Origin: a virus
DNA: 64,000 nucleotides
Direction: 5' to 3' (one strand)
Virus record (IMG/VR): IMGVR_UViG_3300027852_000001
Coordinates: 1 to 64,000 of that record
The translations under genes and the position numbers were made by a program. Below, piece by piece: positions 18,264-42,643 of the stretch. Position 1 is the first letter of the stretch, and every line of letters begins with the position of its first letter. The notes beneath the pieces are model-generated. The model did not search any database. It was not told where the DNA came from and saw only the letters and a list, made by a program, of their open reading frames with translations.

Positions 18264-19096
18264 TGATTATTGGCTATAGTTTCATCTATGTATTCTTTTA
18301 CAGTTGTTATTGATATAGCGTATGCTAAATGGGTCATAATTTGGTTACTATAAGATACTGTTACTGAAAATGGTATTCCTATCAAATAGTAATGTCCATC
18401 ATATTCTTTAAATAGACCTCCTCCGCTAGATCCTGGAGATATATGTGATGTATTTTGATATAAAATCCAATGCTTGTCTCCATTGTCTCCTACAAGAATT
18501 CTTGAAATTATACCAGTAGTTGGTGTTGGAGATTGTCCTAACTGACATCCCACAGCTATTATCTCATCAAAAACACGAACATTTTTTAACATTTGTTCAT
18601 TTGCAATCATTGCTACGTTGAATGTTTTATCAGACACAAAAGATATTATTGATATGTCATATGGAACATCTTCAAATAAAACATCTGCACAATAAACTTC
18701 TGCTTCTTGATTTTCTCCACTGAATGTAATTATACTGCATCCAGTATCCACCACATCAAATATTACTTCTCCAGTTATAGAATTGATACCACTTAGGTAT
18801 TCATTTACTCTGTCATGTGTTACATGTGCATTGGTTAACACTATATATTTGTAAGTATTTTTTTCTTGTGTATTTATTTTGGAGATTATAGTACCAGATC
18901 CGCTTCCAAACATTGTCCGCACCTGAACTGTTGTGTTCAGTGTTTCTTGTTGTTTAATGCTTACCTGATCTATCACATCCGGTAAGGTTATTTCATCTGA
19001 TTTTGTATTTGCTGATGAAAAAGCAATAACAATAATTACAGCCAAAAAAGATGAAAATAACAACATTTTTTTACTAATATTCATAATATTCTCCAA
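18260..19096 (-). CDS. exported trypsin-like (S1/HtrA-like, no PDZ) serine protease
   Basis: N-terminal TM/signal MLLFSSFLAVIIVIAF. Catalytic TNAHV (His) and SPGSSGGGLF (Ser). Confidence 0.7.
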   Translation of the reverse strand: MENIMNISKKMLLFSSFLAVIIVIAFSSANTKSDEITLPDVIDQVSIKQQETLNTTVQVRTMFGSGSGTIISKINTQEKNTYKYIVLTNAHVTHDRVNEYLSGINSITGEVIFDVVDTGCSIITFSGENQEAEVYCADVLFEDVPYDISIISFVSDKTFNVAMIANEQMLKNVRVFDEIIAVGCQLGQSPTPTTGIISRILVGDNGDKHWILYQNTSHISPGSSGGGLFKEYDGHYYLIGIPFSVTVSYSNQIMTHLAYAISITTVKEYIDETIANNQ

Positions 19097-19105
19097 AAAA
19101 TTATT

Positions 19106-19555
19106 TTAAGAAACAAATTCGTCTATACCATCAAGTGCTCCTTTTAACACTGACGAAATTATTTCCATAATAAGTTCCTGGTCTGTTGTTAGATTTAGAT
19201 TAGCCTTTGTTACGAATCTTTCTAGTACGTCTATGACAGCAAGTCCATAGACCTTGTGGTTTTCTTGGAAATTTCTTTGAACAAATAACTTTGCTCCATC
19301 AAAATTTGGTTCTCCGGGCACTTCTAATAAATCTTTCAGTGCTACTAAACTTACTTTCAGACTTAATATTTCATTCTCTGGCATATCTCTTTCTGACAAA
19401 AGTAACTTTGTGGCTATCTTGGAAAATAAATAAGAGTTTTCTTTTATTTCTTCTACATTTTGCTGCCATGGATTTTGCGGAGTAAATAATGAACATCCAG
19501 AAATAGAAAATACCATCATTGCGAGTAGTGATACAAGAATACAGTTTCTTTTCAT
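19106..19555 (-). CDS. lipoprotein
   Basis: Start at MKRNCILVSLLAMMVFSISGC (lipobox ISGC). 149 aa. Confidence 0.6.
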   Translation of the reverse strand: MKRNCILVSLLAMMVFSISGCSLFTPQNPWQQNVEEIKENSYLFSKIATKLLLSERDMPENEILSLKVSLVALKDLLEVPGEPNFDGAKLFVQRNFQENHKVYGLAVIDVLERFVTKANLNLTTDQELIMEIISSVLKGALDGIDEFVS

Positions 19556-19612
19556 TTTTGTTTCCTTTCGTACAATTATAAAATTAATCAGTAACATACT
19601 TATACACATATG

Positions 19613-19936
19613 TTATTTTTGAGATCTCCTCTTTTCAAACTTTTCTCGTCTTCTGTTTTTATTATCTTGATTTTCATCTACTTCTTTTTGTTTTCCAAAT
19701 CTCCATGTTTTTTTAGGTTTTCTAAATAGACTATCATCTTTTTCGTCTATTCGATAACATTCGGAACAACATACTTCACCATTTTTTGTGTGCGTTTCCC
19801 TACAAACACCTTCACATTTTCTTTCGTGTCCACATGCACACAAATCTATACCACTTAATCTATGTTTATTTGGTTTATTTCTTTTTGTTTTTCTTGTATC
19901 CATATCATTATCTTCTTCGTACATCTTAGTCTCCAA
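19613..19936 (-). CDS. hypothetical basic Cys-rich protein
   Basis: 107 aa with CACGHERKCEGVC...CCSEC and Lys/Arg-rich termini. Confidence 0.5.
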   Translation of the reverse strand: METKMYEEDNDMDTRKTKRNKPNKHRLSGIDLCACGHERKCEGVCRETHTKNGEVCCSECYRIDEKDDSLFRKPKKTWRFGKQKEVDENQDNKNRRREKFEKRRSQK

Positions 19937-20536
19937 TTAAATATTACCGACCCTCTTCATCTTATCAATTGCTCGTTTCTTTAACCTAAAAACTGTAGAA
20001 TCAAACATACCACAATCTTTTGCTGTTTCTCTAATAGTTTTTCCACCGAAAAAAATTTGTCTTATTACAATTCGTTCGTCGTCTAGTAATGTCTTCATTA
20101 AGTCTTCGACTAGTATTTTATTGTCAGCAACATTGTCATTTTCTCCAGTTTCTATTGTCTTTAATGCTTCTGGAGATATATTGCTTGCTTTTGTGTATTT
20201 AATTTCATGATTTTTTGCATGTTTTAATGCCCATCTTATTCTATTGTATAAAAATGTCATAAATGAACTTGTGGCTTTTCTTTTAGTTGTTCCATTTTCT
20301 AGTACATAAAATGATCCAGTATTGTTATAACAAATTAAACATTTTAGAAGTTCTAGCGTTGCTAAATTTATAAATTCCTCTTGTTGAGAATTGCATCCTG
20401 TTTGAAATACTAACTTATTTATTAGAGGTTGGTATTTTCTACAAGCAAAATCAAAATAGGATTTTGTTATCCTCCTCTGTTTTACCATCATGCTTGTTTT
20501 CCTTTGTTTATGTCTTTTTCCATTTTCGGAGTCCAA
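19937..20536 (-). CDS. sigma-70-family (ECF-like) RNA polymerase sigma factor
   Basis: C-terminal region-4 HTH TIRETAKDCGMFDSTVFRLKKRAIDKMK, with a region-2-like segment upstream. 199-aa ORF; the true start may be MMVKQ. Confidence 0.6.
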   Translation of the reverse strand: MDSENGKRHKQRKTSMMVKQRRITKSYFDFACRKYQPLINKLVFQTGCNSQQEEFINLATLELLKCLICYNNTGSFYVLENGTTKRKATSSFMTFLYNRIRWALKHAKNHEIKYTKASNISPEALKTIETGENDNVADNKILVEDLMKTLLDDERIVIRQIFFGGKTIRETAKDCGMFDSTVFRLKKRAIDKMKRVGNI

Positions 20537-21138
20537 ATTCCATCCACTATACCAACATCAATAGCTTCTTGTGGTGTCATCCATTTTGTTTTACTCATTA
20601 GTTCTTTTAACTTACTAACACTAAGTTTTGTTCTACGAGACAAATCTGTTACTTTCTGTTTATAGTCAGCCTCAACATACCTTAACATTTCAGCATGTCT
20701 TTCTATTGAATCAATTGGATGTTGTAGTATAACAGAATGCAGCATCATGGATGAATTTTTTGTTATAAATCTTTTGTTTTTAGTTCCATACGCAGCTATC
20801 ATAGCTCCCATTGAATTAGCCTGTCCTCTGACTATGGTAACAATAGGACATGGAGTTGCTAGCATCTGATCTATTATTGCATATCCAGAAGACAAACACC
20901 CTCCAGGACTATTTATATACATATATATTGGTTTATCTACCAGAGAAAATACCTGAAGATAACTACAAATATGAGCAGAAACAGATTCAGTTATTTCTCC
21001 TGTTAGTAAAAGCCTTCTAGTTCTAACTAAAATTTCTTCTGCCAATTCTGTAACATTAACTTGCTCATTTTCATATTCACATTCATCTTCTGACATTGCT
21101 TTAATTTGTTTGTGAAATCTATTCATTTCTATCTCCAA
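20488..21138 (-). CDS. clpP: ClpP-family serine protease
   Basis: LLLTGEI, PIYMYINSPGG, GQANSMGAMI (Ser), MLHSV (His position). Confidence 0.75.
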   Translation of the reverse strand: MEIEMNRFHKQIKAMSEDECEYENEQVNVTELAEEILVRTRRLLLTGEITESVSAHICSYLQVFSLVDKPIYMYINSPGGCLSSGYAIIDQMLATPCPIVTIVRGQANSMGAMIAAYGTKNKRFITKNSSMMLHSVILQHPIDSIERHAEMLRYVEADYKQKVTDLSRRTKLSVSKLKELMSKTKWMTPQEAIDVGIVDGIWTPKMEKDINKGKQA

Positions 21139-22006
21139 AAGGATGATATAACTTATGAGTATTTTTCAGACTAGTTTCGTCAACAGCAAGATATCGTTGT
21201 GTTGCAGATACGTCTCTGTGACCCAATAAAATTTTAACTATATCTAATTCAACTCCTTTTTTCAACAGATTTGTAGCAAAACTTCTTCTAAGAGTGTGAG
21301 GTGTTGTATGTTTAATCCCAGAAACAACAGACAAAGAACGGAGCATATCACCAACTGCTCTTCTAGACATCCTTTTATTTCCACACGTAGTAAAAATAGC
21401 ATTTTCTTCATTTGTACCTTTTGACTCTATATATAATTTTAAAGAATCTACACATCTATGTGTAGTAGGTACGATTCTGTCTACACAACCCTTGCCTCTT
21501 ACAAAAAATTCTCTCTTAGAACAATTTATATCACATAAATTTAAACCACACAACTCAGAAACTCTTAATCCACTATAATATAAAATTAATAAAATAGTGC
21601 CATCGCGGAGAATGTTATCTGTTCTCCTCCTCTGTTCCAAACTTCTAATAAGAGTATCAAAATTTTCGTCATCCAATACTTTAACATCTATTGTCTCCGT
21701 ACTAACTGGGTTAATTAGTTTAACTATATTGCCATCTATTAGATCAAGACTAATTAAATGATGACACAAACACATTATTGACGCTTTTTTTCTTTTAATC
21801 GTGGATGGTTTTAATATTTTGTCTTCCAAAGAAGAGAGAAATGCTTCTATTAGACTAATATCAATTTGTCTATTCTGTAAAAATAATACAAACTCTTCTA
21901 CATCTCTAAGATATGCACTGATTGTAGATGTAGACAAACCAAGTTCTGTTGTAATATATGTCACAAACTTATCCAATTGATATAATTCTGACGAACTACT
22001 ATTCAT
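21119..22006 (-). CDS. tyrosine recombinase (XerC/D-like integrase)
   Basis: SGLRVSEL, HTLRRSFATNLL, LLGHRDVSATQRYL catalytic motifs. 295 aa. Confidence 0.85.
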   Translation of the reverse strand: MNSSSSELYQLDKFVTYITTELGLSTSTISAYLRDVEEFVLFLQNRQIDISLIEAFLSSLEDKILKPSTIKRKKASIMCLCHHLISLDLIDGNIVKLINPVSTETIDVKVLDDENFDTLIRSLEQRRRTDNILRDGTILLILYYSGLRVSELCGLNLCDINCSKREFFVRGKGCVDRIVPTTHRCVDSLKLYIESKGTNEENAIFTTCGNKRMSRRAVGDMLRSLSVVSGIKHTTPHTLRRSFATNLLKKGVELDIVKILLGHRDVSATQRYLAVDETSLKNTHKLYHPFGDRNE

Positions 22007-29908: not shown

Positions 29909-30934
29909 TTATCCGTTCCTTGGCATGGTTTCTTCTAGTGACAGTGGACTTACTATTACGTGTTTTACGTTTTCTCTTAATTCTGGTAGATTTTTTGCGC
30001 CACCAAGAGATAATCCTGCTTTAATCCCACTAGCATATTCTTTCATGACGTCAGAAGTTAACCCTTTATTTTCCACAACCATTACAACTCCTTCTGGGGC
30101 TATATCTTCTCTTTCTGAGACATCACGACTACTCATACCTCGATACATTTCTTTTCCATCAATAAGAGGAGCACAGTCGGTTCCTGCTAGCAAATATCCT
30201 ATCATACAAGCATCAGCGCCAGCCCAAAGAGATTTAACCATATCTCCACTAGTACGGATACCACCATCTGCTATTAATGAAACTTCTTTTCTCCTTCCAC
30301 CAAGTGCTTGGTAAATTTCATGAATTGCGGATAATTGTGGCATACCAAACCCAGTCACAATTCTGGTTGTACATGCAGCACCAGGACCAATACCTATTTT
30401 AATTGCATTGACTCCAGCTTCTTCGAATCTTTTTGCCGCTTCTACAGTACACACATTTCCTGCCATTATAACAAAATCGTTTTGTGATTGTATCTTTGTT
30501 ACTGTTTCTAGGGCTTTATACATCTTGTGATGATCACCATGTGCAATGTCTATACAAATTACATTGCATCCAGCATCTACAAGTGAATTTACTTTAAGTC
30601 CAATATCTCCCTGGATACCAATCGCGCACCCAACGGCTAATCGTTTTGTTGGTGGTGATAGTTCATATGCTTTTTCGATAGTTGAGACTTGATGCGATAA
30701 CTCTTCTTCGTCCCCCATACTTATGTGTCTAGATAAAATTCCCAAACCACCAGCATTGTTCATGGCCAGGAGCATCTTTAGTCCAGTTACTGAGTCCATT
30801 GGAGAGGAAACAATAGGTACGTCTACAGATAAACCGCCAATACTTGTTATGATACTAGGAGTTTTTCTTGAATCAAGACTTGAGTATCTAGGAACAAGAA
30901 GTATATCATTAAAACATAATTTGTTACCTGTCAT
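29909..30934 (-). CDS. guaC: GMP reductase / IMP dehydrogenase-family enzyme without CBS domains (GuaC-like)
   Basis: 341 aa. FNDILLVPR, catalytic loop GIGPGAACTTR, ADGGIRTSGDMVKSLWAGADACMIG. The size and missing CBS pair favour GuaC over GuaB. Confidence 0.75.
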   Translation of the reverse strand: MTGNKLCFNDILLVPRYSSLDSRKTPSIITSIGGLSVDVPIVSSPMDSVTGLKMLLAMNNAGGLGILSRHISMGDEEELSHQVSTIEKAYELSPPTKRLAVGCAIGIQGDIGLKVNSLVDAGCNVICIDIAHGDHHKMYKALETVTKIQSQNDFVIMAGNVCTVEAAKRFEEAGVNAIKIGIGPGAACTTRIVTGFGMPQLSAIHEIYQALGGRRKEVSLIADGGIRTSGDMVKSLWAGADACMIGYLLAGTDCAPLIDGKEMYRGMSSRDVSEREDIAPEGVVMVVENKGLTSDVMKEYASGIKAGLSLGGAKNLPELRENVKHVIVSPLSLEETMPRNG

Positions 30935-31859: not shown

Positions 31860-32843
31860 TTATAGAATTACTCTACGCTTAAGTTCTCCAACAAATCCAC
31901 CCGACTTATCTGTGTCTTCCATTGCTTTTTCTCTTATTTTGTTTAATGTGGAAGTAACACTTTCTTTAACTCTACTGGAATCAAAATCTGACGGTTTTAC
32001 GCTACTATCCAGGAAGGTTGAAGTAAACTCAGCCAACATGTCTTCAATATCACTATCATTGAAAATATTCATGTTTCTGAATTTGTTTACGTATTTACGG
32101 AAATGTGATATTGAGTTTGGCGTTAATCTCTTAACCTTATCTTCATCTTCAAATATATTGCCATTGATCCTTGCTGAAATTAATTCGCAAAATCTTACCG
32201 TTTCATGTCTCATAGCTGAGACGTATTCAGACACAAAAGAACCAACCTCTTCTCTCATTTTACTTCGTAATTCTAAATTTTTCTCCTTGTCTTTTTCATA
32301 TTGGTCTGCGACTTCTTGGGCATTAACTTTTTCTATGTCTGATATACCAGAGATACGGAAAGTAAACCATTCAAATCTAAACTTACTTCTTAATTCTTGA
32401 CGACTAGATGGATAATGATTTTTTAGACATTTGTCCCAAAACTCTGGGTGTGTATTTTTAATTTCCTCTTGCATTTCTCCAAATCTTGAAACAAAACTAC
32501 TTACTCTTTCATAGTATTCTTCCTTTAGAGCTTGTAGTTGTGCTTCCACAGTCCCTACCATATTCTTTGGAACAAAATGTGCGCTTGTAATACCAAAAGG
32601 AACAGACCATCTCTCCAGTGTTTTTCTTCCTTTTTGTTCAATTTGTCCAAGTAGCTGTATCTCCCTTTTTGGGACCATCAACTTTCTTCCAAAATTTACT
32701 AATTCTGTTGGAATCTTTGTTGTATCTAAATCCATTCGTTCCATATCAGCAGCTGTGACCATTTTTCGACCACTCCAGCTACTAACTCTTAAATTTACTA
32801 GAATTCCGACATCAAATAAATTAATTGTATCTGTTTCTGACAT
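31860..32843 (-). CDS. hypothetical protein (helical, possibly DUF3150-like)
   Basis: 327 aa. The N-terminal VNLRVSSWSGRKM pattern recalls DUF3150, but I cannot verify it. Confidence 0.5.
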   Translation of the reverse strand: MSETDTINLFDVGILVNLRVSSWSGRKMVTAADMERMDLDTTKIPTELVNFGRKLMVPKREIQLLGQIEQKGRKTLERWSVPFGITSAHFVPKNMVGTVEAQLQALKEEYYERVSSFVSRFGEMQEEIKNTHPEFWDKCLKNHYPSSRQELRSKFRFEWFTFRISGISDIEKVNAQEVADQYEKDKEKNLELRSKMREEVGSFVSEYVSAMRHETVRFCELISARINGNIFEDEDKVKRLTPNSISHFRKYVNKFRNMNIFNDSDIEDMLAEFTSTFLDSSVKPSDFDSSRVKESVTSTLNKIREKAMEDTDKSGGFVGELKRRVIL

Positions 32844-32852
32844 GATTCTGCC

Positions 32853-34424
32853 TTAATTAAGTTTAATTTTTCTCTTAGTTTCCCCGGTAGTACTCTTTAC
32901 TTTTATCTTTGAAGATTTTGCGTGTTTTTCACACCACTGCTCGATTATTTCTAGACGAGAAGATTCTGTTTCCGACAAAGGAACTATTTCATCAATAGCT
33001 TTTATTAGATATTCATGAGATAATTCTTTTTCGTCAAAGAATGCAAGCTTTAACCCAAGTTTTACTATTTGTTCTATATCTGCTCCAGTGTACCCAACAG
33101 TAGCACTTGCTAATGACTGTATATCAAAATCGCTAGCATTTCTATTTACATTTTCAATATGAATTTTGAAAATTTCAGCACGTTCGACTAAATCCGGGAG
33201 ACTCAAACCAAAGATCTCATCGAACCTACCTTTGCGACAAAATTCTGGAGGAAGAGATTCAACTTGATTTGCAGTAGCTACAACATATATCGGTGATTTT
33301 TTATCACTTAACCATTTGAGGAATGTACCAAACATCCTTTTTGATGTCCCGCCATCATTGTCAGAACTTCCCCCGAAACCTTTTTCTATCTCATCTAATT
33401 GTAGGACACATGGAGACAGTCTTTCCAACATTTTAATGGATTCTTTCATTTTGGCTTCTGATTCTCCAACGAATTTATCCATTAAATCAGATACATCTAG
33501 TGAAATTAGTGGTAAATTTAATTCTGATGCTATGGCTATTGAAATTAATGTTTTTCCACAACCAGGAATACCAACAAGCATTATACCTTTTGGAAATTCT
33601 ATTCCAAATTCTCTGGCTTGTTCCGTAAAACATGGCTTATCTAGGGATACGTGTTTTTTAATAGCACCATATCCACCAACAGTTGATAAACCTCCATCTG
33701 GTGGTTCCTTATATGTTAGGAGACCAGATGCTTTGACGACCGATGCTTTTTCTCTTCCTATTGTTTTCACAGCATTTTCGTCTAGGTCTTTATGTCTACT
33801 TAAAGCTAAGGCCACTCTATCAACAATTTGCTGTGACGTCATTCCAGTACATGCGCCGATTAGGTGCGGCATCATTGTTGTATCTGGTTCGAATTTTTCG
33901 CCATCCATTCCTATAACGTCACTAGTAGCAAATCTAATTCTTTCTTCAATTTGTTCTTTATTCGGGAGATCAAAATCTAAAACAGTTATGTCATGAAGTA
34001 GTTTTTTCGGGATAATTAATCCTGGTCCAACAAAAATTATTGTTTTGTTTAAAGATGCAACTATTTGTTTTAGTTTATCTAATACGCTTATGACTATATC
34101 TGAAGTTGGATAAGTTTCGTGTTTCAGATATTCTCCAAAATCTTTGAGTATAAAAATTGCATCTTCTTCAAAATCTAAGATTGCTTTTAGGTGATCTTCT
34201 ACAGGAGCCTTATCTTTAACTTTACTTGATGGATTTTCATTTTCATCAACCCATCCAAAAGCAACAGACCAAATAAAAGTTTTTCTTTCTATTGCTTTTG
34301 CAGCGTTAGACAGTTCTGTTATAGCTCTGTCTTTTTCGAATGTGTCTACGCTTAATATTGCATGTCCAGAACACACGTATTCTTGTATTTTTTTGGAAAA
34401 TTCGCTCATAATAGTATATTTCAC
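32853..34424 (-). CDS. AAA+ ATPase, classical clade (Ycf46-like)
   Basis: C-terminal AAA module GIMLVGIPGCGKTLISIAIASE (Walker A), VLQLDEIEK (Walker B), TANQVESLPPEFCRKGRFD. 523 aa, like Ycf46. Confidence 0.75.
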   Translation of the reverse strand: MKYTIMSEFSKKIQEYVCSGHAILSVDTFEKDRAITELSNAAKAIERKTFIWSVAFGWVDENENPSSKVKDKAPVEDHLKAILDFEEDAIFILKDFGEYLKHETYPTSDIVISVLDKLKQIVASLNKTIIFVGPGLIIPKKLLHDITVLDFDLPNKEQIEERIRFATSDVIGMDGEKFEPDTTMMPHLIGACTGMTSQQIVDRVALALSRHKDLDENAVKTIGREKASVVKASGLLTYKEPPDGGLSTVGGYGAIKKHVSLDKPCFTEQAREFGIEFPKGIMLVGIPGCGKTLISIAIASELNLPLISLDVSDLMDKFVGESEAKMKESIKMLERLSPCVLQLDEIEKGFGGSSDNDGGTSKRMFGTFLKWLSDKKSPIYVVATANQVESLPPEFCRKGRFDEIFGLSLPDLVERAEIFKIHIENVNRNASDFDIQSLASATVGYTGADIEQIVKLGLKLAFFDEKELSHEYLIKAIDEIVPLSETESSRLEIIEQWCEKHAKSSKIKVKSTTGETKRKIKLN

Positions 34425-36451: not shown

Positions 36452-36688
36452 TCATAGGTATGATGCTGTTGAATTAAGAGGCATCATCTCATATTCGTCT
36501 AGCCAAGTTTTTTCACATTCTTCACATCTTACTAATTGATAGAAGCAACCAGAATCTCCAGGGACTAGACCTCCTTTTAAATCGAGTTTACCATAAGATC
36601 TACAGAACACACATCTATTTTCGTCACAATATGGGGCTCTTAGTTTTAAATCTCCCAAGACAATTCTATTGATTAATCGGAACACCAT
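36452..36688 (-). CDS. zinc-ribbon protein translationally coupled to E1
   Basis: 78 aa with CDENRCVFC...C...CEEC. Its start overlaps the E1 3' end by 23 nt. Confidence 0.55.
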   Translation of the reverse strand: MVFRLINRIVLGDLKLRAPYCDENRCVFCRSYGKLDLKGGLVPGDSGCFYQLVRCEECEKTWLDEYEMMPLNSTASYL

Positions 36689-37334
36689 GTGCTTCCATTT
36701 CGTTTGTTAGTAAATTTAGACTGACATCACAATCTACTTCGCATCCTCTTAGCCATTTTGCAAATTGTGCTACCATCATTCCTGCTGCTATACTTGAACA
36801 ATAGAATGTTGTTTTTGCAGTACATGTTCCACGGTAGGCTTCGGAAGCCTTGAATAGTGTTGTTCTGTAGTGTTCAGCTGATGCTTTGTTGAATACCGAA
36901 AGAATTCTCATATATTCAGCGCTCATTCTTCCGTCTATGAATAGATCAGATCTGTCGGATATTTTATTAAAAATTGATTCTCTTACTTCTATCTTATCAA
37001 CACAACAGAATACAACCCCACCAGGAAATAGTAATGGATTGAATCTGGAATTAGATAATGAGACATCAATAGAGCCATTGACTTTGAGACAAGATTCAGA
37101 AACTGCTCCTACTTTAGAGCATCCAAGGTCTGTTTCGTTAAACCCCTGTGCTCCTAGGTTTTCTATTTGTACCGTATCAAAGTCTATTAGCTTGATTTTC
37201 GGGACGCCTATGGTCGCAAGTTGTATAGCTACTTGTCTTCCAATAGCTCCTACTCCAATAACAGTTGCTTGAATTCTGTCTAGTGAATCTGGAGGAACCA
37301 ATTCTCTTTGTCTAATATTTCTGTTTGGTGTCAT
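36666..37334 (-). CDS. ThiF/MoeB-type E1-like adenylyltransferase
   Basis: Rossmann VIGVGAIGRQVA (GxGxxG), then KLIDFDTVQIENLGAQ (E1 D.D.V...NL..Q). The ATG at 37334 follows a GGAG SD and shares one base with the JAB TAA stop (TAATG). Confidence 0.75.
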   Translation of the reverse strand: MTPNRNIRQRELVPPDSLDRIQATVIGVGAIGRQVAIQLATIGVPKIKLIDFDTVQIENLGAQGFNETDLGCSKVGAVSESCLKVNGSIDVSLSNSRFNPLLFPGGVVFCCVDKIEVRESIFNKISDRSDLFIDGRMSAEYMRILSVFNKASAEHYRTTLFKASEAYRGTCTAKTTFYCSSIAAGMMVAQFAKWLRGCEVDCDVSLNLLTNEMEAHGVPINQ

Positions 37335-38158
37335 TATGTATTCTCCATGATCATTTCTGTGGTTATCGGATTTTTCCTTATCCAAGAATGCACTGCACTC
37401 TCTAGTAACTTACCAATTGGTTTATTGATTTTTGTAAATTTATCTTGACCAATCTGTTCTTCATAATACGTGTCCATTTCTTGGTCATATAAATTCCATC
37501 TTTCCGTGATTGGATTCCAAAATTCGACATCTCCGTCGTCATCATAGCTAATTGTTAAATCACTATAATCAAATTCATTTTGACATTGGCTTATGATGTC
37601 TGAGTCGATCCCCTCGACAAGCATTCTTTCTGGAATTACTTTTAATTTATATTCTTCTTCCCATTTTTCTTCGGAAGATCCTGGAAATTCACTATCCCAG
37701 GCAATGGCAGTTTTTAATTGTGTAATAGTTCCTGGACCTATATTAACCTTTAATCTACATGATGTTTTTCCACCCTTGGCGAGAATAAACATTATTGCCC
37801 AATTTGGGTGAGAAAAAGCATCTTTAAAATTTTTCTCATCTATAGAAGATGGGTTTGGACTATCCCCTGGGTGTGTATGTATTAGGATATTAGAACACTG
37901 CCATGGCATCAGACTATCGTCCAACATTTCATCTAAAAAATCAGCAATATCTTCTGGATCAAATTCAAATGTACATGAAGTGCATCGTGATTTTATCAAG
38001 CGGAAGTCTGTCACTAGAAGTGGGTCTTCTGTGTCGGTAATTCCATATCCTGCTACTTCTGTATCTCCATAATCCCTCATAAACAATAGTTTGCTCCAGG
38101 CATATGGAGTGAAGCGTATTTCGTTGTTGAATGAAGTCATTGGGTTAGTATTATTCAT
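37334..38158 (-). CDS. JAB/MPN (JAMM) metallopeptidase
   Basis: Full JAMM signature: E34 (DTEVAGYG) and H94-T-H96-PGDSPNP-S104-SI-D107 (HxH-x7-S-x2-D). Confidence 0.8.
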   Translation of the reverse strand: MNNTNPMTSFNNEIRFTPYAWSKLLFMRDYGDTEVAGYGITDTEDPLLVTDFRLIKSRCTSCTFEFDPEDIADFLDEMLDDSLMPWQCSNILIHTHPGDSPNPSSIDEKNFKDAFSHPNWAIMFILAKGGKTSCRLKVNIGPGTITQLKTAIAWDSEFPGSSEEKWEEEYKLKVIPERMLVEGIDSDIISQCQNEFDYSDLTISYDDDGDVEFWNPITERWNLYDQEMDTYYEEQIGQDKFTKINKPIGKLLESAVHSWIRKNPITTEMIMENT

Positions 38159-39449
38159 TTATTGTTTCTTTCAGTAGACATCCACTATCTAAATTATAAC
38201 AATCTGTACATAATTCTCTATTGCAATTATCGCAACACTTTGTTTTACAAGAAGAACAAAGAATTTTTAAACATGTCTCACAGGTTGAAGCACATTCTGG
38301 ACAAATTATTTCACCACATTCAGAACATTCACTTAATTCTGAACAATCTTCACAATAGACTACGTCGCAAGAAGAACAAACTACCCTACAGTCTGAACAT
38401 ACAATATTTTCACACTTTTCACAATTTTCTGCACAACCTAGACAAGTATTTCTTCCACAGGTAGAGCATTCTACTCTACATTCTGAGCAGGTTCCTGTTC
38501 CACATGAACCACACTTACTCATACAACTGTCACATAATGTTTCATTGCATTCGCCACATTGGCTAGCACATGAATCACATACCATGTTGTCACAATCTAT
38601 ACATTGACGATGCCATTCTTCAGCGCACGAAGAACATAATGTATCACCACATTCCACGCATATAGACATGTCATCTTCTGGTCGATAGTTTTCACATCCA
38701 TCACAAAATATTTCTCCTTCGTGAGACGGATTGTACCAAGAACACAATTCGTCGTATGGAGATGATGAATTATATGTCCTTAATATTGATTCAACAATTG
38801 TGAATAAGTCTTCTAATCTACCAGATAGAACTGCTTGTTCTATCATCTCATCCCCCTCACCTTGACATAGAGAGCCAGATGAGTTTACGTGTGGGTGAAA
38901 ATATCCCTTGTTAGAACATATCGGATAAGTAGCTTCTACAGACAAAAACGATAACATCGATTTTGTTAAATCTAGAACAATTCTCATGTTTCCGAAATTG
39001 AATTCTCTATCCCCATCAGTAAGTTCTACGTCAGAGATTATGACTGATAATTGTCCGTTTTTGTAGGTTACATTATCTGCTCCTCGGTCTGATACAATAG
39101 CAGATATTTCTTCCATAACATGTTTTAGACTAAGTTTATTCTTACCACCAAGACTGAGGACATGCGACATCCTATTTTTAATGTTATCCATTTTCCATGA
39201 TATGTCATCAACACAAGGAGATAATACATTTTCAAATAATTGTTTAACACAACTTGTGCTAGTTATTCTTTGTTTTGACTTAATTATAGCAACTATTACT
39301 TTTGATAGTCTGTTTGCTTTTTCTTGTCGTCGTTGTACGTATGACATATCTAATACTGAATTAAGTTCACCATCTTCTATTTCGTGTGAGTATTTACTAA
39401 AGAATTCTAGAAATTTATTAGCTGCTCTTATAATTAATTTTTGGTTCAT
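38151..39449 (-). CDS. E2 (UBC-like) ubiquitin-conjugating-type protein fused to a C-terminal CxxC repeat array
   Basis: FHPHVNSSGSLC (aa 184-195) has the same spacing as eukaryotic E2 HPN[IV]xxxGx[IL]C. Residues 249-424 carry 44 Cys in about ten C-x2-C-x4-C-x2-C-x3 units. The stop overlaps the JAB start by 8 nt (ATGAATAA). Confidence 0.7.
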   Translation of the reverse strand: MNQKLIIRAANKFLEFFSKYSHEIEDGELNSVLDMSYVQRRQEKANRLSKVIVAIIKSKQRITSTSCVKQLFENVLSPCVDDISWKMDNIKNRMSHVLSLGGKNKLSLKHVMEEISAIVSDRGADNVTYKNGQLSVIISDVELTDGDREFNFGNMRIVLDLTKSMLSFLSVEATYPICSNKGYFHPHVNSSGSLCQGEGDEMIEQAVLSGRLEDLFTIVESILRTYNSSSPYDELCSWYNPSHEGEIFCDGCENYRPEDDMSICVECGDTLCSSCAEEWHRQCIDCDNMVCDSCASQCGECNETLCDSCMSKCGSCGTGTCSECRVECSTCGRNTCLGCAENCEKCENIVCSDCRVVCSSCDVVYCEDCSELSECSECGEIICPECASTCETCLKILCSSCKTKCCDNCNRELCTDCYNLDSGCLLKETINE

Positions 39450-39471
39450 GGTTATATCTTTTGGATATTTA

Positions 39472-39507
39472 CAAAAAAAAAGGGAGGGGGCTTAACACCC
39501 CCTCCCT
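39472..39507 (-). terminator. intrinsic terminator between the Ubl gene and the E2 gene
   Basis: Perfect 10-bp G/C-rich stem (39481-39490 with 39498-39507), 7-nt loop, then about 8 U on the minus-strand RNA (A-run 39473-39480). There is no T-run on the plus side. Confidence 0.8.
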
Positions 39508-39554
39508 CGTGTCTTCAGAATACAAAGATCAAAAATTCTATCGCAATCTTATAT

Positions 39555-39791
39555 CTAGTTTGCGCCTTCTACCTTCGATGGAGTAAGAGATACCCGATCT
39601 CCATCCTGGAGCACATATTCGCCATATGCCTGTACACTGGTTCCATTGGACCTTACCTTGATAACAAAATCGTCTAGGTCTCCACCGTCAAAAGAAACAT
39701 TCAGAAACGCATCTAGTGTTGTTCCTTCAGCTACTGGGAAACGTACTGGAACTCCATTGCCACTATTTGATACCATGAAAACATCGATCAT
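39555..39791 (-). CDS. ubiquitin-like beta-grasp protein (ThiS/MoaD-like)
   Basis: 78 aa from the ATG at 39791 (GGAG SD; the track start at 39851 is TTG). L.DGDRVSL.P.KVEG tail resembles ThiS/MoaD ..GD.V.i...vgGG. Ends in VEGAN. Confidence 0.6.
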   Translation of the reverse strand: MIDVFMVSNSGNGVPVRFPVAEGTTLDAFLNVSFDGGDLDDFVIKVRSNGTSVQAYGEYVLQDGDRVSLTPSKVEGAN

Positions 39792-39874
39792 TTTTTTTCT
39801 CCGCAAATAATTCGTTCTGTTGTTAGTAATTACGATACGCAAAAAATACAAGAATTAGACTCAAGACACTATAT

Positions 39875-40452: not shown

Positions 40453-40809
40453 TTACTTTGTTTTCCTAACTAAATCTAAACGTCTTACAATAAAGATCAA
40501 TACTTCATTAAGCTCGACGAGAAATGCTATCTGTTGTTGGTCTTTTTCTTTTAGTAGGTCATAAATTACATAAAACCCATTCCACTTACCTACTTTATAA
40601 TTTGCATCTTTCAACTGTTTGTTCAGGTCATCGATTGAGATATCTACCAAATCTTGTCCCTTCGTCTCATACCATTCTCCGTCTAGCCCATAAGCAAATG
40701 TTGTTTTTTCTTTATTTCGTTTAGAAATTTTCTTTACAATTTTTATACTAATTAAAATAACAAGGAACCACGGTGTTATTAATAAAATTGTAAATATGAT
40801 ATTTGTCAT
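40453..40809 (-). CDS. membrane-anchored hypothetical protein
   Basis: N-terminal TM IIFTILLITPWFLVILISIKIV. 118 aa. Confidence 0.5.
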   Translation of the reverse strand: MTNIIFTILLITPWFLVILISIKIVKKISKRNKEKTTFAYGLDGEWYETKGQDLVDISIDDLNKQLKDANYKVGKWNGFYVIYDLLKEKDQQQIAFLVELNEVLIFIVRRLDLVRKTK

Positions 40810-41882
40810 AATTTATCTGCACTATCACATAAAAATACTTCTAAGTCATTGTGTTTTGGTCGTATCACTTTCATTATGTATTGATCTAATTTGTTAGTAT
40901 TGTTGTCTAAAATCAAAAACATAGCCGATTGATGTAGGTTACCCTTAACATGGCCAGCAAATTTATGTCTTTCTGATTTATCTGGAGTTTTGTCAAACTC
41001 GCTTTGCAGTAGATTCATTACTCTTAAGTAGCGTTGTTCTAACTCATACGCGATTGTTCTTAAGATTGAGTGATATTCTATATCTACTACATCCAATAAA
41101 TCCGGATTAACTTCACCATGAAGCATTTCATTCCAAACACCTACTGGTGTGAGTTTTCTTAGTAGGTTATGTCTACGGATATAATCAGCAGCTTTTAACT
41201 TTACTCTCAATCCGTTGTCGAATTTTACGACATATCCCTCTAGTTTTGTTCCATTCGCTATTTTTAGTTGGCCTCTGCAATATCCTAACCATTCTTGATC
41301 ATAAGATTTAACTAGTGTAAAACCAAATTCTTCACTCCACTTTTCTACTTGCTCTATGTCATATTCTTCTCCAGTATGCCTATTATATGCGCCAAGTAGT
41401 ATTAAATCTCTTTTGCATCCATAATCAACCACTATTCTAGTTAGTGGTCCAATTATTTCAAATATTAAAGTTACATCTTCTGGTAAATTATTTAAGTTGT
41501 ATTTTTTTAACATGGCTGTGGCGAATACTGCCCCATCGCTGCTAAAAGATCCTCTTGTAGCAATCTTGAATTCACCATTGACTCTGTAAAGAATTCCTAA
41601 CCACCCATCTTCTTTCTTGGTTATGGAAAATCCATTTCCCCATGGTAGATTTCTTTCTTGTGTATCCTGTCTTTGGTTCATATTGAAAAATTTAGGGAAA
41701 GGACGTGCTACTATTTCACCAGTTACCCTATTCAATATAATTCCACGGCTGTTTATTGTTAGGTCATTCCAGATTTTGCATCCATTGACATATGTGTAGA
41801 TTCTTAGGTCTCCACAATCATCACACCTTAATAGACCTTGCTTTACTAATTCGTCTCTTTGTTCTACGTGGTCGTGTTTCAT
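40806..41882 (-). CDS. RNA ligase (T4 Rnl1-like nucleotidyltransferase)
   Basis: Motif I TKKEDGWLG (KxDG). About 358 aa, comparable to T4 Rnl1. The ATG at 41882 is preceded by AAGGAGAA. Adjacent to tRNA genes. Confidence 0.6.
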   Translation of the reverse strand: MKHDHVEQRDELVKQGLLRCDDCGDLRIYTYVNGCKIWNDLTINSRGIILNRVTGEIVARPFPKFFNMNQRQDTQERNLPWGNGFSITKKEDGWLGILYRVNGEFKIATRGSFSSDGAVFATAMLKKYNLNNLPEDVTLIFEIIGPLTRIVVDYGCKRDLILLGAYNRHTGEEYDIEQVEKWSEEFGFTLVKSYDQEWLGYCRGQLKIANGTKLEGYVVKFDNGLRVKLKAADYIRRHNLLRKLTPVGVWNEMLHGEVNPDLLDVVDIEYHSILRTIAYELEQRYLRVMNLLQSEFDKTPDKSERHKFAGHVKGNLHQSAMFLILDNNTNKLDQYIMKVIRPKHNDLEVFLCDSADKL

Positions 41883-41913
41883 TGTGGTTCTCCTTATATT
41901 TTTACACAAAAAC

Positions 41914-41987
41914 TAAGCCGGGTGGGACTCGAACCCACGACTTTCGGATTAGAAATCCGATGCTCTGTCCAACTGAGCTACCGGCTC
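41914..41987 (-). tRNA. tRNA-Arg(UCU): tRNA-Arg (anticodon UCU)
   Basis: 74-nt cloverleaf: GAGCCGG-UA-GCUC/AGUUGGACA/GAGC-A-UCGGA/UUUCUAA/UCCGA-AAGUC-GUGGG/UUCGAGU/CCCAC-CCGGCUU-A. Confidence 0.9.
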
Positions 41988-42570: not shown

Positions 42571-42643
42571 TGGGCCGGGTGGGGCTCGAACCCACGACCA
42601 CCCGCTTAAAAGGCGGATGCTCTACCGACTGAGCTACCGGCCC
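42571..42643 (-). tRNA. tRNA-Lys(UUU): tRNA-Lys (anticodon UUU)
   Basis: 73-nt cloverleaf: GGGCCGG-UA-GCUC/AGUCGGUA/GAGC-A-UCCGC/CUUUUAA/GCGGG-UGGUC-GUGGG/UUCGAGC/CCCAC-CCGGCCC-A. Confidence 0.9.

What the first reader, a model, noticed from the sequence alone, without database searches (positions are those of the whole stretch)
36452..39851. Virus-encoded ubiquitin-like conjugation cascade: Ubl, E2, JAB, E1 and a zinc ribbon in one coupled operon
Seen in sequence:
- Five consecutive minus-strand genes.
- A 78-aa ThiS/MoaD-like beta-grasp protein.
- A 432-aa protein whose FHPHVNSSGSLC segment reproduces the spacing of the eukaryotic E2 active site HPN[IV]xxxGx[IL]C.
- A JAMM peptidase with the complete E...HxH-x7-S-x2-D signature.
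- A ThiF-like E1 (GxGxxG plus D.D.V...NL..Q).
- A CxxC zinc ribbon.
- The enzyme genes are translationally coupled: E2/JAB overlap by 8 nt (ATGAATAA), JAB/E1 share TAATG, and E1/zinc ribbon overlap by 23 nt.

Established knowledge: the Ubl-E2-JAB-E1 order is that of bacterial Bil (BilABCD, ISG15-like) operons and the Ubl/E2/E1/JAB operons catalogued by Iyer, Burroughs and Aravind. Bil systems are host defences that tag phage tail proteins.

Inference: here the whole cascade sits inside a genome that otherwise looks like a large phage (replisome, RNR, ThyX, tRNAs). It could be a phage weapon against competing phages, a host-takeover tool or a virion-maturation device. I regard this as the most likely undescribed system in the window.
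Basis: partly seen in the sequence, partly recalled or inferred. Interest (0 to 1): 0.9.

Follow-up and report, generated by a model that had tools for sequence, protein, structure and literature searches.

The report
Phage ubiquitin-like tagging module, unconfirmed E2
A large phage carries a conserved set of genes resembling a ubiquitin-style protein-tagging system, linked to a Cdc48-like unfolding ATPase; it belongs to an apparently undescribed family, and its supposed 'E2' enzyme could not be shown to be a real E2.

Summary
The five minus-strand genes, their motifs and their overlaps are all present as described. Three assignments hold: a ThiF-type E1 (Pfam 9.5e-22), a JAMM peptidase with a complete motif, and a ThiS/MoaD-like Ubl ending in a conserved ...K[IV]EG-A plus a variable tail.

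The 432-aa 'E2' is not confirmed. It belongs to a large family (3,681 representatives) with invariant HPH-x6/7-Cys. There is no Pfam or PDB sequence match. A confident AlphaFold model (pLDDT 82.6) gave no UBC hit in Foldseek. hhalign to E2s is colinear but only marginal.

The system is not Bil. The E1 is a single 222-aa domain, and the E2-like protein lacks BilB's Cys-then-His motif.

Ubl, E2-like, JAB and E1 recur in the same order in 36 of 38 bacterial loci, mostly Planctomycetota and often on mobile elements. They also recur in 23 IMG/VR contigs, many of 160–190 kb.

Three corrections to the finding:
- The zinc ribbon is not conserved.
- A strong terminator separates the Ubl gene from the enzyme genes.
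- A Cdc48/PAN-like AAA+ ATPase and a DUF3150 protein, 2 kb downstream, are co-conserved.

The best reading is a new variant of prokaryotic Ubl conjugation coupled to an unfoldase. Its targets and its role in infection are unknown.

The parts
39555..39791 (-). Ubl precursor, 78 aa, ThiS/MoaD-like; C-terminus ...TPSKVEG-AN
   Evidence: The window protein hits Pfam ThiS only weakly (E 0.09). Of 21 family members, 19 hit ThiS (best 1.1e-5) and others hit ThiS-like, TGS or Ub-Mut7C. The best PDB profile hit is MoaD (E 0.42). The motif ...GDRVS.TP.K[IV]EGA plus a 0-6 residue variable tail is conserved in about 48 loci. No structure was predicted for it.
39480..39508 (-). Intrinsic-terminator-like hairpin plus T9 between the Ubl gene and the enzyme genes
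   Evidence: The scan found a 12-bp stem with 8 GC pairs and a T-run. The RNA fold gives MFE -32.3 kcal/mol and z = -4.96. Non-identical hairpin plus T-run sites follow the Ubl gene in 7 of 20 viral and 8 of 51 bacterial relatives.
38721..39449 (-). E2-like protein, N-terminal part (aa 1-243): three long helices, then helix / beta-meander / HPH loop (38889-38897) / Cys195 (38865-38867) / two helices
   Evidence: The AlphaFold2 model built on a 40-sequence alignment has pLDDT 82.6 and pTM 0.73. Invariant residues are G153, H185, P186, H187, C195, G197, Y226 and W238. The family has 3,681 representatives at E<=1e-3. There is no Pfam hit in 48 members and no UBC hit in Foldseek PDB or BFVD. hhalign against 7 eukaryotic E2s is colinear, with P = 0.017-0.026 and a score of 19.9 against a shuffled-column maximum of 18.9.
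38175..38705 (-). E2-like protein, C-terminal cysteine array: ten CxxC-x4-CxxC units at a period of about 15 residues (44 Cys in 188 aa)
   Evidence: A regex count gives 10 units against a family median of 4. The CxxC pairs are nearly invariant across the family. There are weak RING/PHD/IBR similarities only: RNF8 RING E 0.005 and Foldseek 1wim and 2ysm, not significant.
37334..38158 (-). JAMM/MPN+ metallopeptidase, 274 aa (JAB core about aa 10-150, variable C-terminal extension)
   Evidence: Pfam Prok-JAB scores 24.9 bits against a gathering score of 25. PADLOC JAB models hit at 1.3e-5 and NCBIfam Cap3 at 5.8e-4. The family profile's best PDB hits are Rpn11 and CsRpn11 at E 0.03. The E...HxH-x7-S-x2-D motif is conserved across 46 homologs.
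36666..37334 (-). ThiF-type E1-like adenylating enzyme, 222 aa, single domain; GVGAIG, DFD..N..Q and a conserved G-x-C-T (Cys171 from the ATG start, Cys188 in the 239-aa ORF)
   Evidence: Pfam ThiF 9.5e-22; PADLOC CBASS E1-E2 models 2e-12; NCBIfam ThiF/MoeB 8e-18; PDB MccB, MoeB, UBA5 and BubCD. Family conservation is shown.
36452..36688 (-). Small CxxC protein (78 aa) overlapping the end of E1 by 23 nt; lineage-specific and probably not part of the conserved system
   Evidence: It has two CxxC pairs. It has no family hit and no homolog in 62 bacterial or metagenome loci or in 23 viral loci. The gene after E1 varies between relatives.
32853..34424 (-). Classic-clade AAA+ ATPase, 523 aa (novel N-terminal domain plus one AAA module), co-conserved with the cassette
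   Evidence: Pfam AAA 2.6e-29; PDB Cdc48/p97/VAT D2 about 4e-59; NCBIfam PAN/FtsH/CDC48; phrog_8638 3e-119. Homologs (E 1e-57 to 1e-225) lie within 6-8 kb of the cassette in 25 bacterial and 12 viral loci.
31860..32843 (-). DUF3150 protein, 327 aa, immediately after the AAA+ gene, co-conserved
   Evidence: Pfam DUF3150 5.4e-19. Viral homologs reach 1e-129, directly after the AAA gene. Ten or more consistent weak hits (4e-7 to 4e-3) fall on the gene at the same syntenic position in bacterial loci.

Best explanation
This is a phage-borne copy of a conserved, apparently uncharacterised Ubl-conjugation-type module.

Shown:
- The module comprises a ThiS/MoaD-like Ubl made as a precursor (...KVEG-AN), a JAMM peptidase, a single-domain ThiF-type E1 and a protein with an invariant HPH...Cys motif.
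- These four keep the same order in bacteria and in a clade of roughly 160-190 kb phages.
- They are linked to a Cdc48/PAN-like AAA+ ATPase and a DUF3150 protein.

Inferred mechanism:
1. The JAMM peptidase trims the tail after the conserved Gly. It may also reverse conjugates.
2. The E1, presumably a homodimer like MoeB, ThiF and UBA5, adenylates the exposed Gly. It may form a thioester on its conserved Cys171.
3. The Ubl passes to Cys195 of the E2-like protein.
4. The C-terminal array of ten CxxC-x4-CxxC zinc knuckles on that protein acts as a built-in target-binding, E3-like module.
5. The AAA+ ATPase, with DUF3150, unfolds or extracts the tagged proteins.

The terminator after the Ubl gene would let the modifier be made in excess over the translationally coupled enzymes. 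The targets are unknown, as is the role of the module in host takeover, virion maturation or exclusion of rival phages.
For: - Domain assignments: E1, JAB and Ubl at family level.
- The conserved EG-A plus variable tail parallels the Gly-plus-tail precursor that BilC trims in Type II Bil (paper 10.1101/2023.09.26.559546).
- Synteny: JAB and E1 are present in 36 of 38 genome loci and Ubl in 43 of 47. In 23 viral loci the counts are Ubl 22, E2-like 20, JAB 23 and E1 23.
- E2-like role: the HPH and Cys residues are invariant across a family of 3,681 representatives. The model's element order is helix, beta-meander, HPH loop, Cys, two helices. The hhalign alignment to E2s runs colinearly from helix alpha-1 through HPN to the Cys.
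- AAA+ and DUF3150 linkage holds in two different gene orders: upstream in most bacterial loci, downstream in the window, in L057 and in the phage clade. The AAA+ is closest to Cdc48/p97/VAT and PAN.
- No sulfur-metabolism partner appears among the conserved neighbours.
Against: - The E2 assignment fails every database test. No Pfam UQ_con or Prok-E2 hit in 48 members. No PDB sequence hit with a 40-sequence profile. Foldseek on a confident model found no UBC hit in the PDB (best E 0.1) and only unnamed viral homologs in BFVD.
- The hhalign probability is 2-3%, and the score only just exceeds the shuffled-column null.
- HPH plus Cys could be a metal site rather than a thioester site.
- The Ubl fold was not modelled, and the window protein itself scores below Pfam's threshold.
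- The JAB sits on the Pfam threshold (24.9 against 25).
- AAA+ relatives occur in other phages without any Ubl genes, so the link may be loose.
- There are no biochemical data.
Confidence: 0.5

Rival explanations
1. It is a Bil-type (BilABCD) system carried by a phage. It tags structural proteins of competing phages and so acts as a superinfection-exclusion weapon.
For: The gene order Ubl-E2-JAB-E1 matches Bil, as does a Gly-plus-tail Ubl precursor. Bacterial relatives sit on mobile elements where defence genes tend to accumulate: as cargo of Tn7-like transposons (L001, L002), beside integrases (L006) and beside a serine recombinase (L007).
Against: - Membership fails. The E1 is one 222-aa domain against the two-domain BilD of about 535 aa.
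- There is no similarity to BilB (hhalign probability 0.6%), and the catalytic motif order is reversed.
- PADLOC returns only generic JAB and CBASS-E1 matches.
- Bil has no AAA+ or DUF3150 partners.
- The function was not tested in any way.
Confidence: 0.12
2. The 432-aa protein is not an E2. The E1 conjugates the Ubl directly, without an E2, as UbaA does with archaeal SAMPs. The HPH-Cys / zinc-knuckle protein would then be the substrate, an adaptor or a regulator, possibly with a new fold.
For: All profile and structure searches for UBC were negative despite a confident model. The fold has no significant PDB neighbour, with TM-scores normalised to the query of 0.18 or less. One family member occurs without JAB or E1 nearby (L006).
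Against: The protein sits between Ubl and JAB-E1 in about 95% of loci. It is translationally coupled to JAB. Its invariant Cys lies 9-10 residues after an invariant HPH, as in E2s, and the hhalign alignment is colinear. Bacterial E2s were first recognised at similarly marginal significance (PMC1779556).
Confidence: 0.25
3. It is a sulfur-carrier or biosynthetic system of the ThiS-ThiF-JAB type, like CysO/Mec+ or thioquinolobactin QbsCDE. The Ubl would be thiocarboxylated, and the Cys-rich protein would relay sulfur or bind metal.
For: The best curated matches of the E1 are ThiF and MoeB and MccB and MoeB in the PDB. The Ubl resembles ThiS and MoaD. From my own knowledge of the CysO/Mec+ and QbsE/QbsD systems, JAB trimming of a ThiS-like precursor is known in sulfur pathways.
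Against: No rhodanese domain is present on the 222-aa E1. No Thi, Moa, Cys or other sulfur-enzyme partner appears among the conserved neighbours, which are instead an unfoldase-type AAA+ ATPase and DUF3150. Carriage by large phages and transposons fits a protein-directed conflict function better.
Confidence: 0.1

Closest known systems
Type II Bil (BilABCD; CEHH/6C operons; Chambers et al., bioRxiv 10.1101/2023.09.26.559546)
   Same: It has four genes in the order Ubl, E2-position protein, JAMM peptidase, E1. The Ubl is mostly a single beta-grasp domain with a conserved Gly followed by a short variable tail that the JAMM enzyme removes. It is carried on mobile DNA.
   Different: BilD is about 535 aa with inactive plus active adenylation domains and a zinc site; here the E1 is a single 222-aa ThiF domain without CxxC pairs. 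BilB has Cys followed by His (the CEHH motif) and is a recognisable E2; here the protein has HPH before the Cys, a long helical N-terminus and a zinc-knuckle array, and shows no detectable similarity. Bil has no AAA+ or DUF3150 partner.
Eukaryotic UBC E2 enzymes (for example UBE2D2; UBE2W as I recall it carries HPHV...C)
   Same: The motif H-P-[NH]-[IV]-x3-G-x-[IL]-C has identical spacing in the window protein. The element order is helix, beta-meander, motif loop, Cys, helices. The hhalign alignment is colinear.
   Different: There is no Pfam UQ_con match and no Foldseek match to any of the many E2 chains in the PDB. Most family members are one residue shorter between His and Cys. The segment after the Cys (CxGxG then a helix) differs from LDIL...W. 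The protein also has an extra 100-residue helical N-terminus and a C-terminal Cys array.
Ubiquitin/Cdc48(p97), SAMP/PAN and Pup/Mpa pathways (a modifier plus a classic-clade AAA+ unfoldase)
   Same: A small modifier system is genetically linked to a Cdc48/PAN-like AAA+ ATPase. The JAB is closest to Rpn11-type deubiquitinases.
   Different: The AAA+ protein has a single AAA module with an unrelated N-terminal domain. No proteasome or protease gene is identified nearby. The linkage is genomic only. The partner protein DUF3150 has no known function.
Caldiarchaeum-type 'eukaryote-like' operon (Ub, E1, E2, small RING finger, Rpn11; PMC3082918, PMC5654768)
   Same: It combines a Ubl, an E1, an E2-position protein, a Rpn11-like JAB and a zinc-finger element in one cluster.
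   Different: Those E2 and E1 proteins are recognisably eukaryote-like (a UBC-type E2). Here the zinc fingers are fused to the E2-like protein as a 4-12 unit CxxC array, and the E1 is a minimal ThiF.
DUF1257-DUF2997-AAA+ trio of phages (for example Rhizobium phage RHph_I4, MN988552)
   Same: The AAA+ ATPase family is the same (29% identity over 94% of the protein, phrog_8638). The bacterial loci carry DUF1257-like and DUF2997-like genes before the AAA+ gene.
   Different: Those phages have no Ubl, JAB, E1 or E2-like genes. The window has no detectable DUF1257 or DUF2997.

Membership tests
Bil (BilABCD) systems | Four genes encoding Ubl, E2, JAMM DUB and E1 | tested here: inconclusive
   Ubl, JAB and E1 are present in the Bil order. 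The protein in the E2 position is not demonstrably an E2.
Bil (BilABCD) systems | E2 homologous to BilB (catalytic Cys followed by a conserved His; CEHH in Type II) | tested here: not met
   hhalign of the family profile against E. aridi BilB gives probability 0.6%. The motif here is HPH-x6/7-C, so the His precedes the Cys.
Bil (BilABCD) systems | E1 (BilD) with inactive plus active adenylation domains, about 500 aa | tested here: not met
   The E1 is 222 aa with one ThiF domain. The BilD sequence in the paper is about 535 aa.
Bil (BilABCD) systems | Ubl with a conserved Gly followed by a tail removed by the JAMM peptidase | tested here: met
   The sequence feature is met...K[IV]EG-A plus 0-6 variable residues in about 48 loci. 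Cleavage itself is not testable here.
Bil (BilABCD) systems | Anti-phage defence by tagging phage tail proteins | not testable with these tools
   This needs infection assays and mass spectrometry.
UBC / E2 superfamily | Significant match to a UBC or Prok-E2 profile | tested here: not met
   Pfam found none at E<=1 for the window protein and none at E<=0.01 in 48 members. A 40-sequence profile found no E2 among PDB sequences. PADLOC and NCBIfam found none.
UBC / E2 superfamily | UBC fold in a structural comparison | tested here: not met
UBC / E2 superfamily | HPN-type motif about 10 residues before the catalytic Cys, after a helix plus beta-meander | tested here: met
   HPH and the Cys are invariant, spaced 9-10 residues apart. 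The DSSP element order of the model is H108-122, strands 127-173, HPH 185-187, C195, H199-208, H212-224. hhalign is colinear with P = 0.017-0.026, which is marginal against the shuffled null.
JAMM/MPN+ metallopeptidases | The E...HxH-x7-S-x2-D zinc site and a JAB-domain profile match | tested here: met
   The motif lies at E33, H94, H96, S104 and D107 and is conserved in 46 homologs. Pfam Prok-JAB scores 24.9 against a cut-off of 25, which is borderline. PADLOC JAB hits at 1.3e-5. Rpn11 is the best PDB profile hit at E 0.03.
ThiF/MoeB/E1 adenylating enzymes | ThiF-domain match above the curated threshold, with the nucleotide-binding GxGxxG and the Arg/Asp motifs | tested here: met
   Pfam ThiF scores 77.7 bits against a cut-off of 28.1. 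GVGAIG, DFD..N..Q, CVD and a conserved G-x-C-T are present.
ThiS/MoaD-like beta-grasp Ubls | Beta-grasp domain ending in a C-terminal Gly | tested here: inconclusive
   The window protein scores below threshold (13.8 against 22.5 bits). Of 21 family members, 19 hit ThiS (best 1.1e-5), along with other beta-grasp families. MoaD is the top PDB hit at E 0.42. A conserved Gly is present.
Sulfur-carrier (ThiS/MoaD-ThiF/MoeB) biosynthetic systems | A rhodanese or sulfurtransferase and Thi/Moa/Cys pathway partners in the neighbourhood | tested here: not met
   The E1 has no extra domain. The conserved neighbours are the AAA+ ATPase, DUF3150, DUF1257-like and DUF2997-like genes and small unknown ORFs. 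Only part of the window's ORFs were scanned against family libraries.

The most novel reading that the evidence does not exclude
Large phages, and mobile elements of Planctomycetota, encode a self-contained 'tag-and-unfold' pathway. A ThiS-like Ubl would be activated by a minimal E1. It would then be passed to a Cys-dependent conjugating enzyme of a previously unseen or extremely diverged non-UBC fold, fused to its own zinc-knuckle target-recognition array. The tagged proteins would be processed by a dedicated Cdc48/PAN-like AAA+ ATPase working with DUF3150. This would be a viral and bacterial counterpart of the ubiquitin-Cdc48 axis, used during infection to dismantle host or rival-phage proteins.
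Probability: 0.25. Interest if true: 0.9.

Novelty: new variant of a known kind. Interest (0 to 1): 0.72.

Why it matters
Bacterial ubiquitin-like conjugation (CBASS type II, Bil, Bub) has so far been described as host defence. This is a related but distinct module whose closest relatives of the window copy sit in a recurrent clade of roughly 160-190 kb phage genomes. It is also abundant in Planctomycetota mobile elements.

- If the HPH-Cys protein is a true thioester carrier, it either extends the E2 superfamily far beyond what current profiles and Foldseek detect, or it is an independent invention of an E2.
- The conserved link to a Cdc48/PAN-like ATPase gives a testable prokaryotic and viral model for how modifier tagging became coupled to unfoldases.
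- It also assigns a context to several families of unknown function: DUF3150, phrog_8638 and a family of more than 3,600 sequence clusters with no Pfam model.

Tried and rejected
- blastn of the cassette, and tblastn of the JAB, E2-like and DUF3150 proteins, against 50,697 GenBank phages: no match.
- Word-indexed homolog search for the E2-like protein found only 9-11 proteins and gave a false impression of rarity. The exhaustive HMMER search corrected this.
- The first AlphaFold run, on the full-length protein with 9 sequences, was too poor to use (pLDDT 60.5), and its Foldseek hits were noise.
- Exact look-up of the window's E2-like protein in contig indices: not on record.
- The first scan of genome contigs, with alignment A4, failed for lack of a conserved stretch. 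It was repeated with a tighter alignment.
- The last homolog search, meant to deepen the E2 profile, returned almost only UBE2D-like sequences and was not used.
- Bil membership was considered and rejected on E1 architecture and the E2 motif.
- Iyer 2006 classes 6a-6e were checked and none fits.
- Burroughs et al. 2011 (PMC5938088), which might describe related RING-associated systems, is not held. Prior description there cannot be excluded.
- The zinc ribbon was rejected as a system component.
- The IetA and TRIP13 PADLOC hits of the AAA+ ATPase were judged to be generic AAA similarity.
- Literature searches for DUF3150, DUF1257 and DUF2997 found nothing informative.

Full report
OBSERVATION. 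The five minus-strand ORFs exist as described.
- The Ubl candidate is best read from the ATG at 39791, which follows a GGAG and gives 78 aa. Homolog N-termini align with this start. The finding's end coordinate of 39851 is a TTG extension.
- The E2-like gene is 38151-39449 (432 aa).
- The JAB gene is 37334-38158 (274 aa).
- The E1 is best read from the ATG at 37334, giving 222 aa; homologs align from there.
- The small CxxC protein is 36452-36688 (78 aa).
- Direct reading confirms the junctions: ATGAATAA, an 8-nt overlap between E2-like and JAB; TAATG between JAB and E1; and a 23-nt overlap between E1 and the CxxC gene.
- The motifs are confirmed: HPHVNSSGSLC with Cys195; JAMM E33/H94-x-H96-x7-S104-x2-D107; and E1 GVGAIG and DFDTVQIENLGAQ.

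One feature contradicts the idea of a single coupled operon. The 105-nt gap between the Ubl gene and the E2-like gene holds a strong intrinsic-terminator-like hairpin at 39508-39480, with a 12-bp stem and a T9 run. Its MFE is -32.3 kcal/mol with z = -4.96. Non-identical hairpin-plus-T sites follow the Ubl gene in 7 of 20 viral and 8 of 51 bacterial relatives, by a rough criterion.

DOMAIN ASSIGNMENTS.
- The E1 is secure. Pfam ThiF scores 77.7 bits against a cut-off of 28.1. PADLOC CBASS E1-E2 models hit at 2e-12. The closest PDB sequences are MccB, MoeB, UBA5 and BubCD.
- The E1 is a single domain with no rhodanese and no second adenylation-like domain. It has a family-conserved G-x-C-T (Cys171 from the ATG) where ThiF, MoeB and E1 enzymes carry their loop cysteine. 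That positional equivalence is my inference.
- The JAB sits on Pfam's threshold (24.9 against 25 bits). It has the complete, family-conserved zinc site. It matches PADLOC JAB models and NCBIfam Cap3 models, and as a profile it matches Rpn11 and CsRpn11 best in the PDB at E 0.03.
- The Ubl is weak on its own (ThiS E 0.09). At family level, 19 of 21 members hit Pfam ThiS (best 1.1e-5), and others hit ThiS-like, TGS and Ub-Mut7C, which are all beta-grasp families. MoaD is the top PDB hit.
- The Ubl C-terminus is strikingly conserved...GDRVS.TP.K[IV]EGA followed by 0-6 variable residues. This is the Gly-plus-tail precursor arrangement that BilC processes in Type II Bil.

THE 'E2'.
- This protein belongs to a large family. 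The word-indexed search found about 10 members. The exhaustive HMMER search found 3,681 cluster representatives at E<=1e-3 and 782 at E<=1e-30, typically 340-360 aa long.
- Invariant residues are G153, H185, P186, H187, C195, G197, Y226 and W238, plus CxxC pairs in the C-terminal part.
- No Pfam model matches any of 48 members. NCBIfam, PHROGs and PADLOC give nothing. A 40-sequence profile finds only coiled-coil noise among PDB sequences.
- An AlphaFold2 model of aa 1-243 built on 40 sequences is confident, with pLDDT 82.6, pTM 0.73 and the core at 85-96. It shows three long helices. These are followed by helix 108-122, a beta-meander at 127-173, the HPH loop, Cys195, and helices 199-208 and 212-224. 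That order of elements is the order found in UBC.
- Foldseek nevertheless found no E2 in the PDB (best hit E 0.1, unrelated). In BFVD it found only four unnamed viral proteins, which look like family members (E 2e-5 to 8e-3).
- hhalign of the family profile against seven diverse eukaryotic E2s gives one colinear alignment: E2 helix alpha-1, the strands, HPN onto HPH, and Cys onto Cys. The probability is only 2-3% and P = 0.017-0.026. The score of 19.9 compares with a shuffled-column null of mean 12.9 and maximum 18.9 over 30 shuffles.
UBE2D2 was later verified as 100% identical to database entries.
- The window's exact spacing (H-x9-C with Gly at +7) is shared by few relatives. Most are one residue shorter.
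Topology, invariant residues and context still point to an E2-like role. My estimates are about 0.45 that it is a diverged UBC homolog and about 0.6 that it carries the Ubl on Cys195.
- The C-terminal 188 residues hold 44 cysteines arranged as ten CxxC-x4-CxxC units at a period of about 15 residues, against a family median of four. Similarity to RING, PHD and IBR fingers is only weak.

CONSERVATION AND CONTEXT.
- Genome scan. A scan of one genome per species returned 55 loci, nearly all from Planctomycetota MAGs (Pirellulales, Planctomycetaceae). Two copies occur in Planctomicrobium sp. SH661. A few loci are from Thiobacillus, Chloroflexota and Hydrogenedentota, and one is from a Nitrososphaerota MAG.
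- Synteny in genome loci. The window's proteins find JAB and E1 in 36 of 38 loci with enough flank, and Ubl in 43 of 47, always in the order Ubl, E2-like, JAB, E1. JAB E-values are around 1e-40 to 1e-50 and E1 around 1e-55 to 1e-76.
- Mobile-element context. Some copies are cargo directly after Tn7-like tnsA/tnsB/tniB/tniQ genes. Others lie next to integrases (L006) or a serine recombinase (L007).
- Viral contigs. Scanning IMG/VR with the JAB alignment found 23 viral contigs, many of 160-191 kb, with JAB 55-67% identical to the window's. Ubl is present in 22, E2-like in 20, JAB in 23 and E1 in 23. The identical E2-like protein is recorded on a 168-kb contig.
- Isolated phages. No GenBank phage has the JAB, the E2-like protein or DUF3150.
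- The window. It is phage-like. It encodes PolIII-alpha (phrog_405, 2e-154), RNR, a DnaB-like helicase, primase, an exonuclease, RecA/UvsX, ThyX, an Rnl1-like ligase and five tRNAs, and every gene examined lies on the minus strand. I did not see structural genes in the ORFs I scanned.

TWO CORRECTIONS OF SCOPE.
(i) The zinc-ribbon gene has no homolog in any related locus, and the gene following E1 differs from relative to relative. It is best treated as a lineage-specific ORF.
(ii) All-against-all clustering of neighbouring ORFs showed two further co-conserved genes that are also in the window.
- The first is a 523-aa AAA+ ATPase at 32853-34424. Its closest solved relatives are the Cdc48/p97/VAT D2 domains at about 4e-59, and its closest curated families are PAN, FtsH and CDC48.
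- The second is a DUF3150 protein at 31860-32843.
- The pair lies upstream of the cassette in 25-30 bacterial loci. It lies downstream in the window, in L057 and in the phage clade, where AAA E-values reach 1e-225 and DUF3150 reaches 1e-129. A linkage kept through rearrangement argues for a functional connection.
- The bacterial loci also carry DUF1257-like and DUF2997-like genes before the AAA+ gene. The same trio occurs without any Ubl genes in Rhizobium phage RHph_I4.

COMPARISON WITH KNOWN SYSTEMS.
- The gene order and the Ubl precursor resemble Bil. Two defining Bil features were tested and not met: the two-domain BilD and a BilB-type E2 with Cys before His.
- None of classes 6a-6e of Iyer et al. 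2006 fits.
- Literature searches found no description of this family, of its AAA+ association or of a phage-encoded version.
- Burroughs et al. 2011 was not available, so an earlier mention cannot be excluded.

MECHANISM (inferred).
1. The Ubl is made in excess because of the terminator after its gene.
2. The JAB exposes Gly76.
3. The E1 adenylates it.
4. The Ubl passes to Cys195 of the E2-like protein.
5. The zinc-knuckle array of that protein selects targets.
6. The AAA+ ATPase with DUF3150 acts on the tagged proteins.

The rival explanations are E2-independent conjugation with the 432-aa protein as adaptor or substrate (0.25), a Bil-like exclusion weapon (0.12) and sulfur transfer (0.10). 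Nothing here tells us the targets or the benefit to the phage.

VERDICT. The cassette is real, conserved and apparently undescribed. It is a new variant of prokaryotic Ubl-conjugation systems and is not Bil. Its central 'E2' claim remains unproven. Its boundaries should be redrawn to drop the zinc ribbon and to add the AAA+ and DUF3150 pair.

Noticed in passing
window 31860-34424 (minus strand): A Cdc48/PAN-like AAA+ ATPase (523 aa, phrog_8638) and a DUF3150 protein lie 2 kb downstream of the cassette. They are co-conserved with it in 25-30 bacterial loci and in the phage clade, in two different gene orders.
   Followed up: yes
window 39480-39508 (minus strand): A strong hairpin plus T9 terminator follows directly after the Ubl gene. 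Non-identical hairpin plus T-run sites follow the Ubl gene in 7 of 20 viral and 8 of 51 bacterial relatives. This suggests the modifier is expressed in excess of the enzymes.
   Followed up: partly
window 38175-38705 (E2-like protein aa 249-425): The cysteine array is expanded to ten CxxC-x4-CxxC units in this phage copy, against a family median of four (range 0-12).
   Followed up: partly
window 40806-41909 and 41914-41987, 42571-42643: An Rnl1-like RNA ligase (phrog_562, 2.7e-53) sits immediately next to tRNA-Arg(TCT) and close to tRNA-Lys(TTT). This could be a tRNA-repair arrangement. In relative L072 the ligase lies after DUF3150 instead.
   Followed up: no
L001 1-9000 and L002 1-8400: In two bacterial contigs the cassette is the first cargo after Tn7-like tnsA/tnsB/tniB/tniQ genes, with Ku genes nearby. 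In L002 the element sits beside dnaA, dnaN and gyrB.
   Followed up: no
L041 and L057 (Planctomicrobium sp. SH661, NZ_CP195791, 3.52-3.56 Mb): A cultured, fully sequenced planctomycete carries two copies about 26 kb apart in opposite orientation. One has AAA+ and DUF3150 downstream, as in the phage. It is a possible experimental host.
   Followed up: no
L063 (Rhizobium phage RHph_I4, MN988552, 60899-64221): The same AAA+ family is followed by DUF1257 and DUF2997 genes in an isolated phage that has no Ubl genes. The bacterial loci have weakly similar 127-aa and 70-aa genes before their AAA+ gene.
   Followed up: partly
L006 8001-9344: One family member (447 aa, on a 3.1-Mb contig) stands without JAB, E1 or Ubl nearby, next to an N6-methyltransferase and integrases. 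The E2-like protein can therefore occur alone.
   Followed up: no
L001 12497-12685 and 33 other bacterial loci: A conserved ORF of 62-71 aa (MTQSQLDRAVA...DWDELD) lies either after E1 or just before the Ubl gene in 34 loci. It is absent from the window, and no family was assigned.
   Followed up: no
L083 10084-11433: In one viral relative the gene after E1 encodes a 449-aa protein with 17 CxxC motifs. It may be a second E2-like paralog.
   Followed up: no
window 18260-22006 and 29909-30934: The phage-like window also encodes a trypsin-like peptidase, a tyrosine recombinase (Phage_integrase, 1e-35) and a GMP-reductase/IMPDH-family enzyme (4e-81).
   Followed up: no
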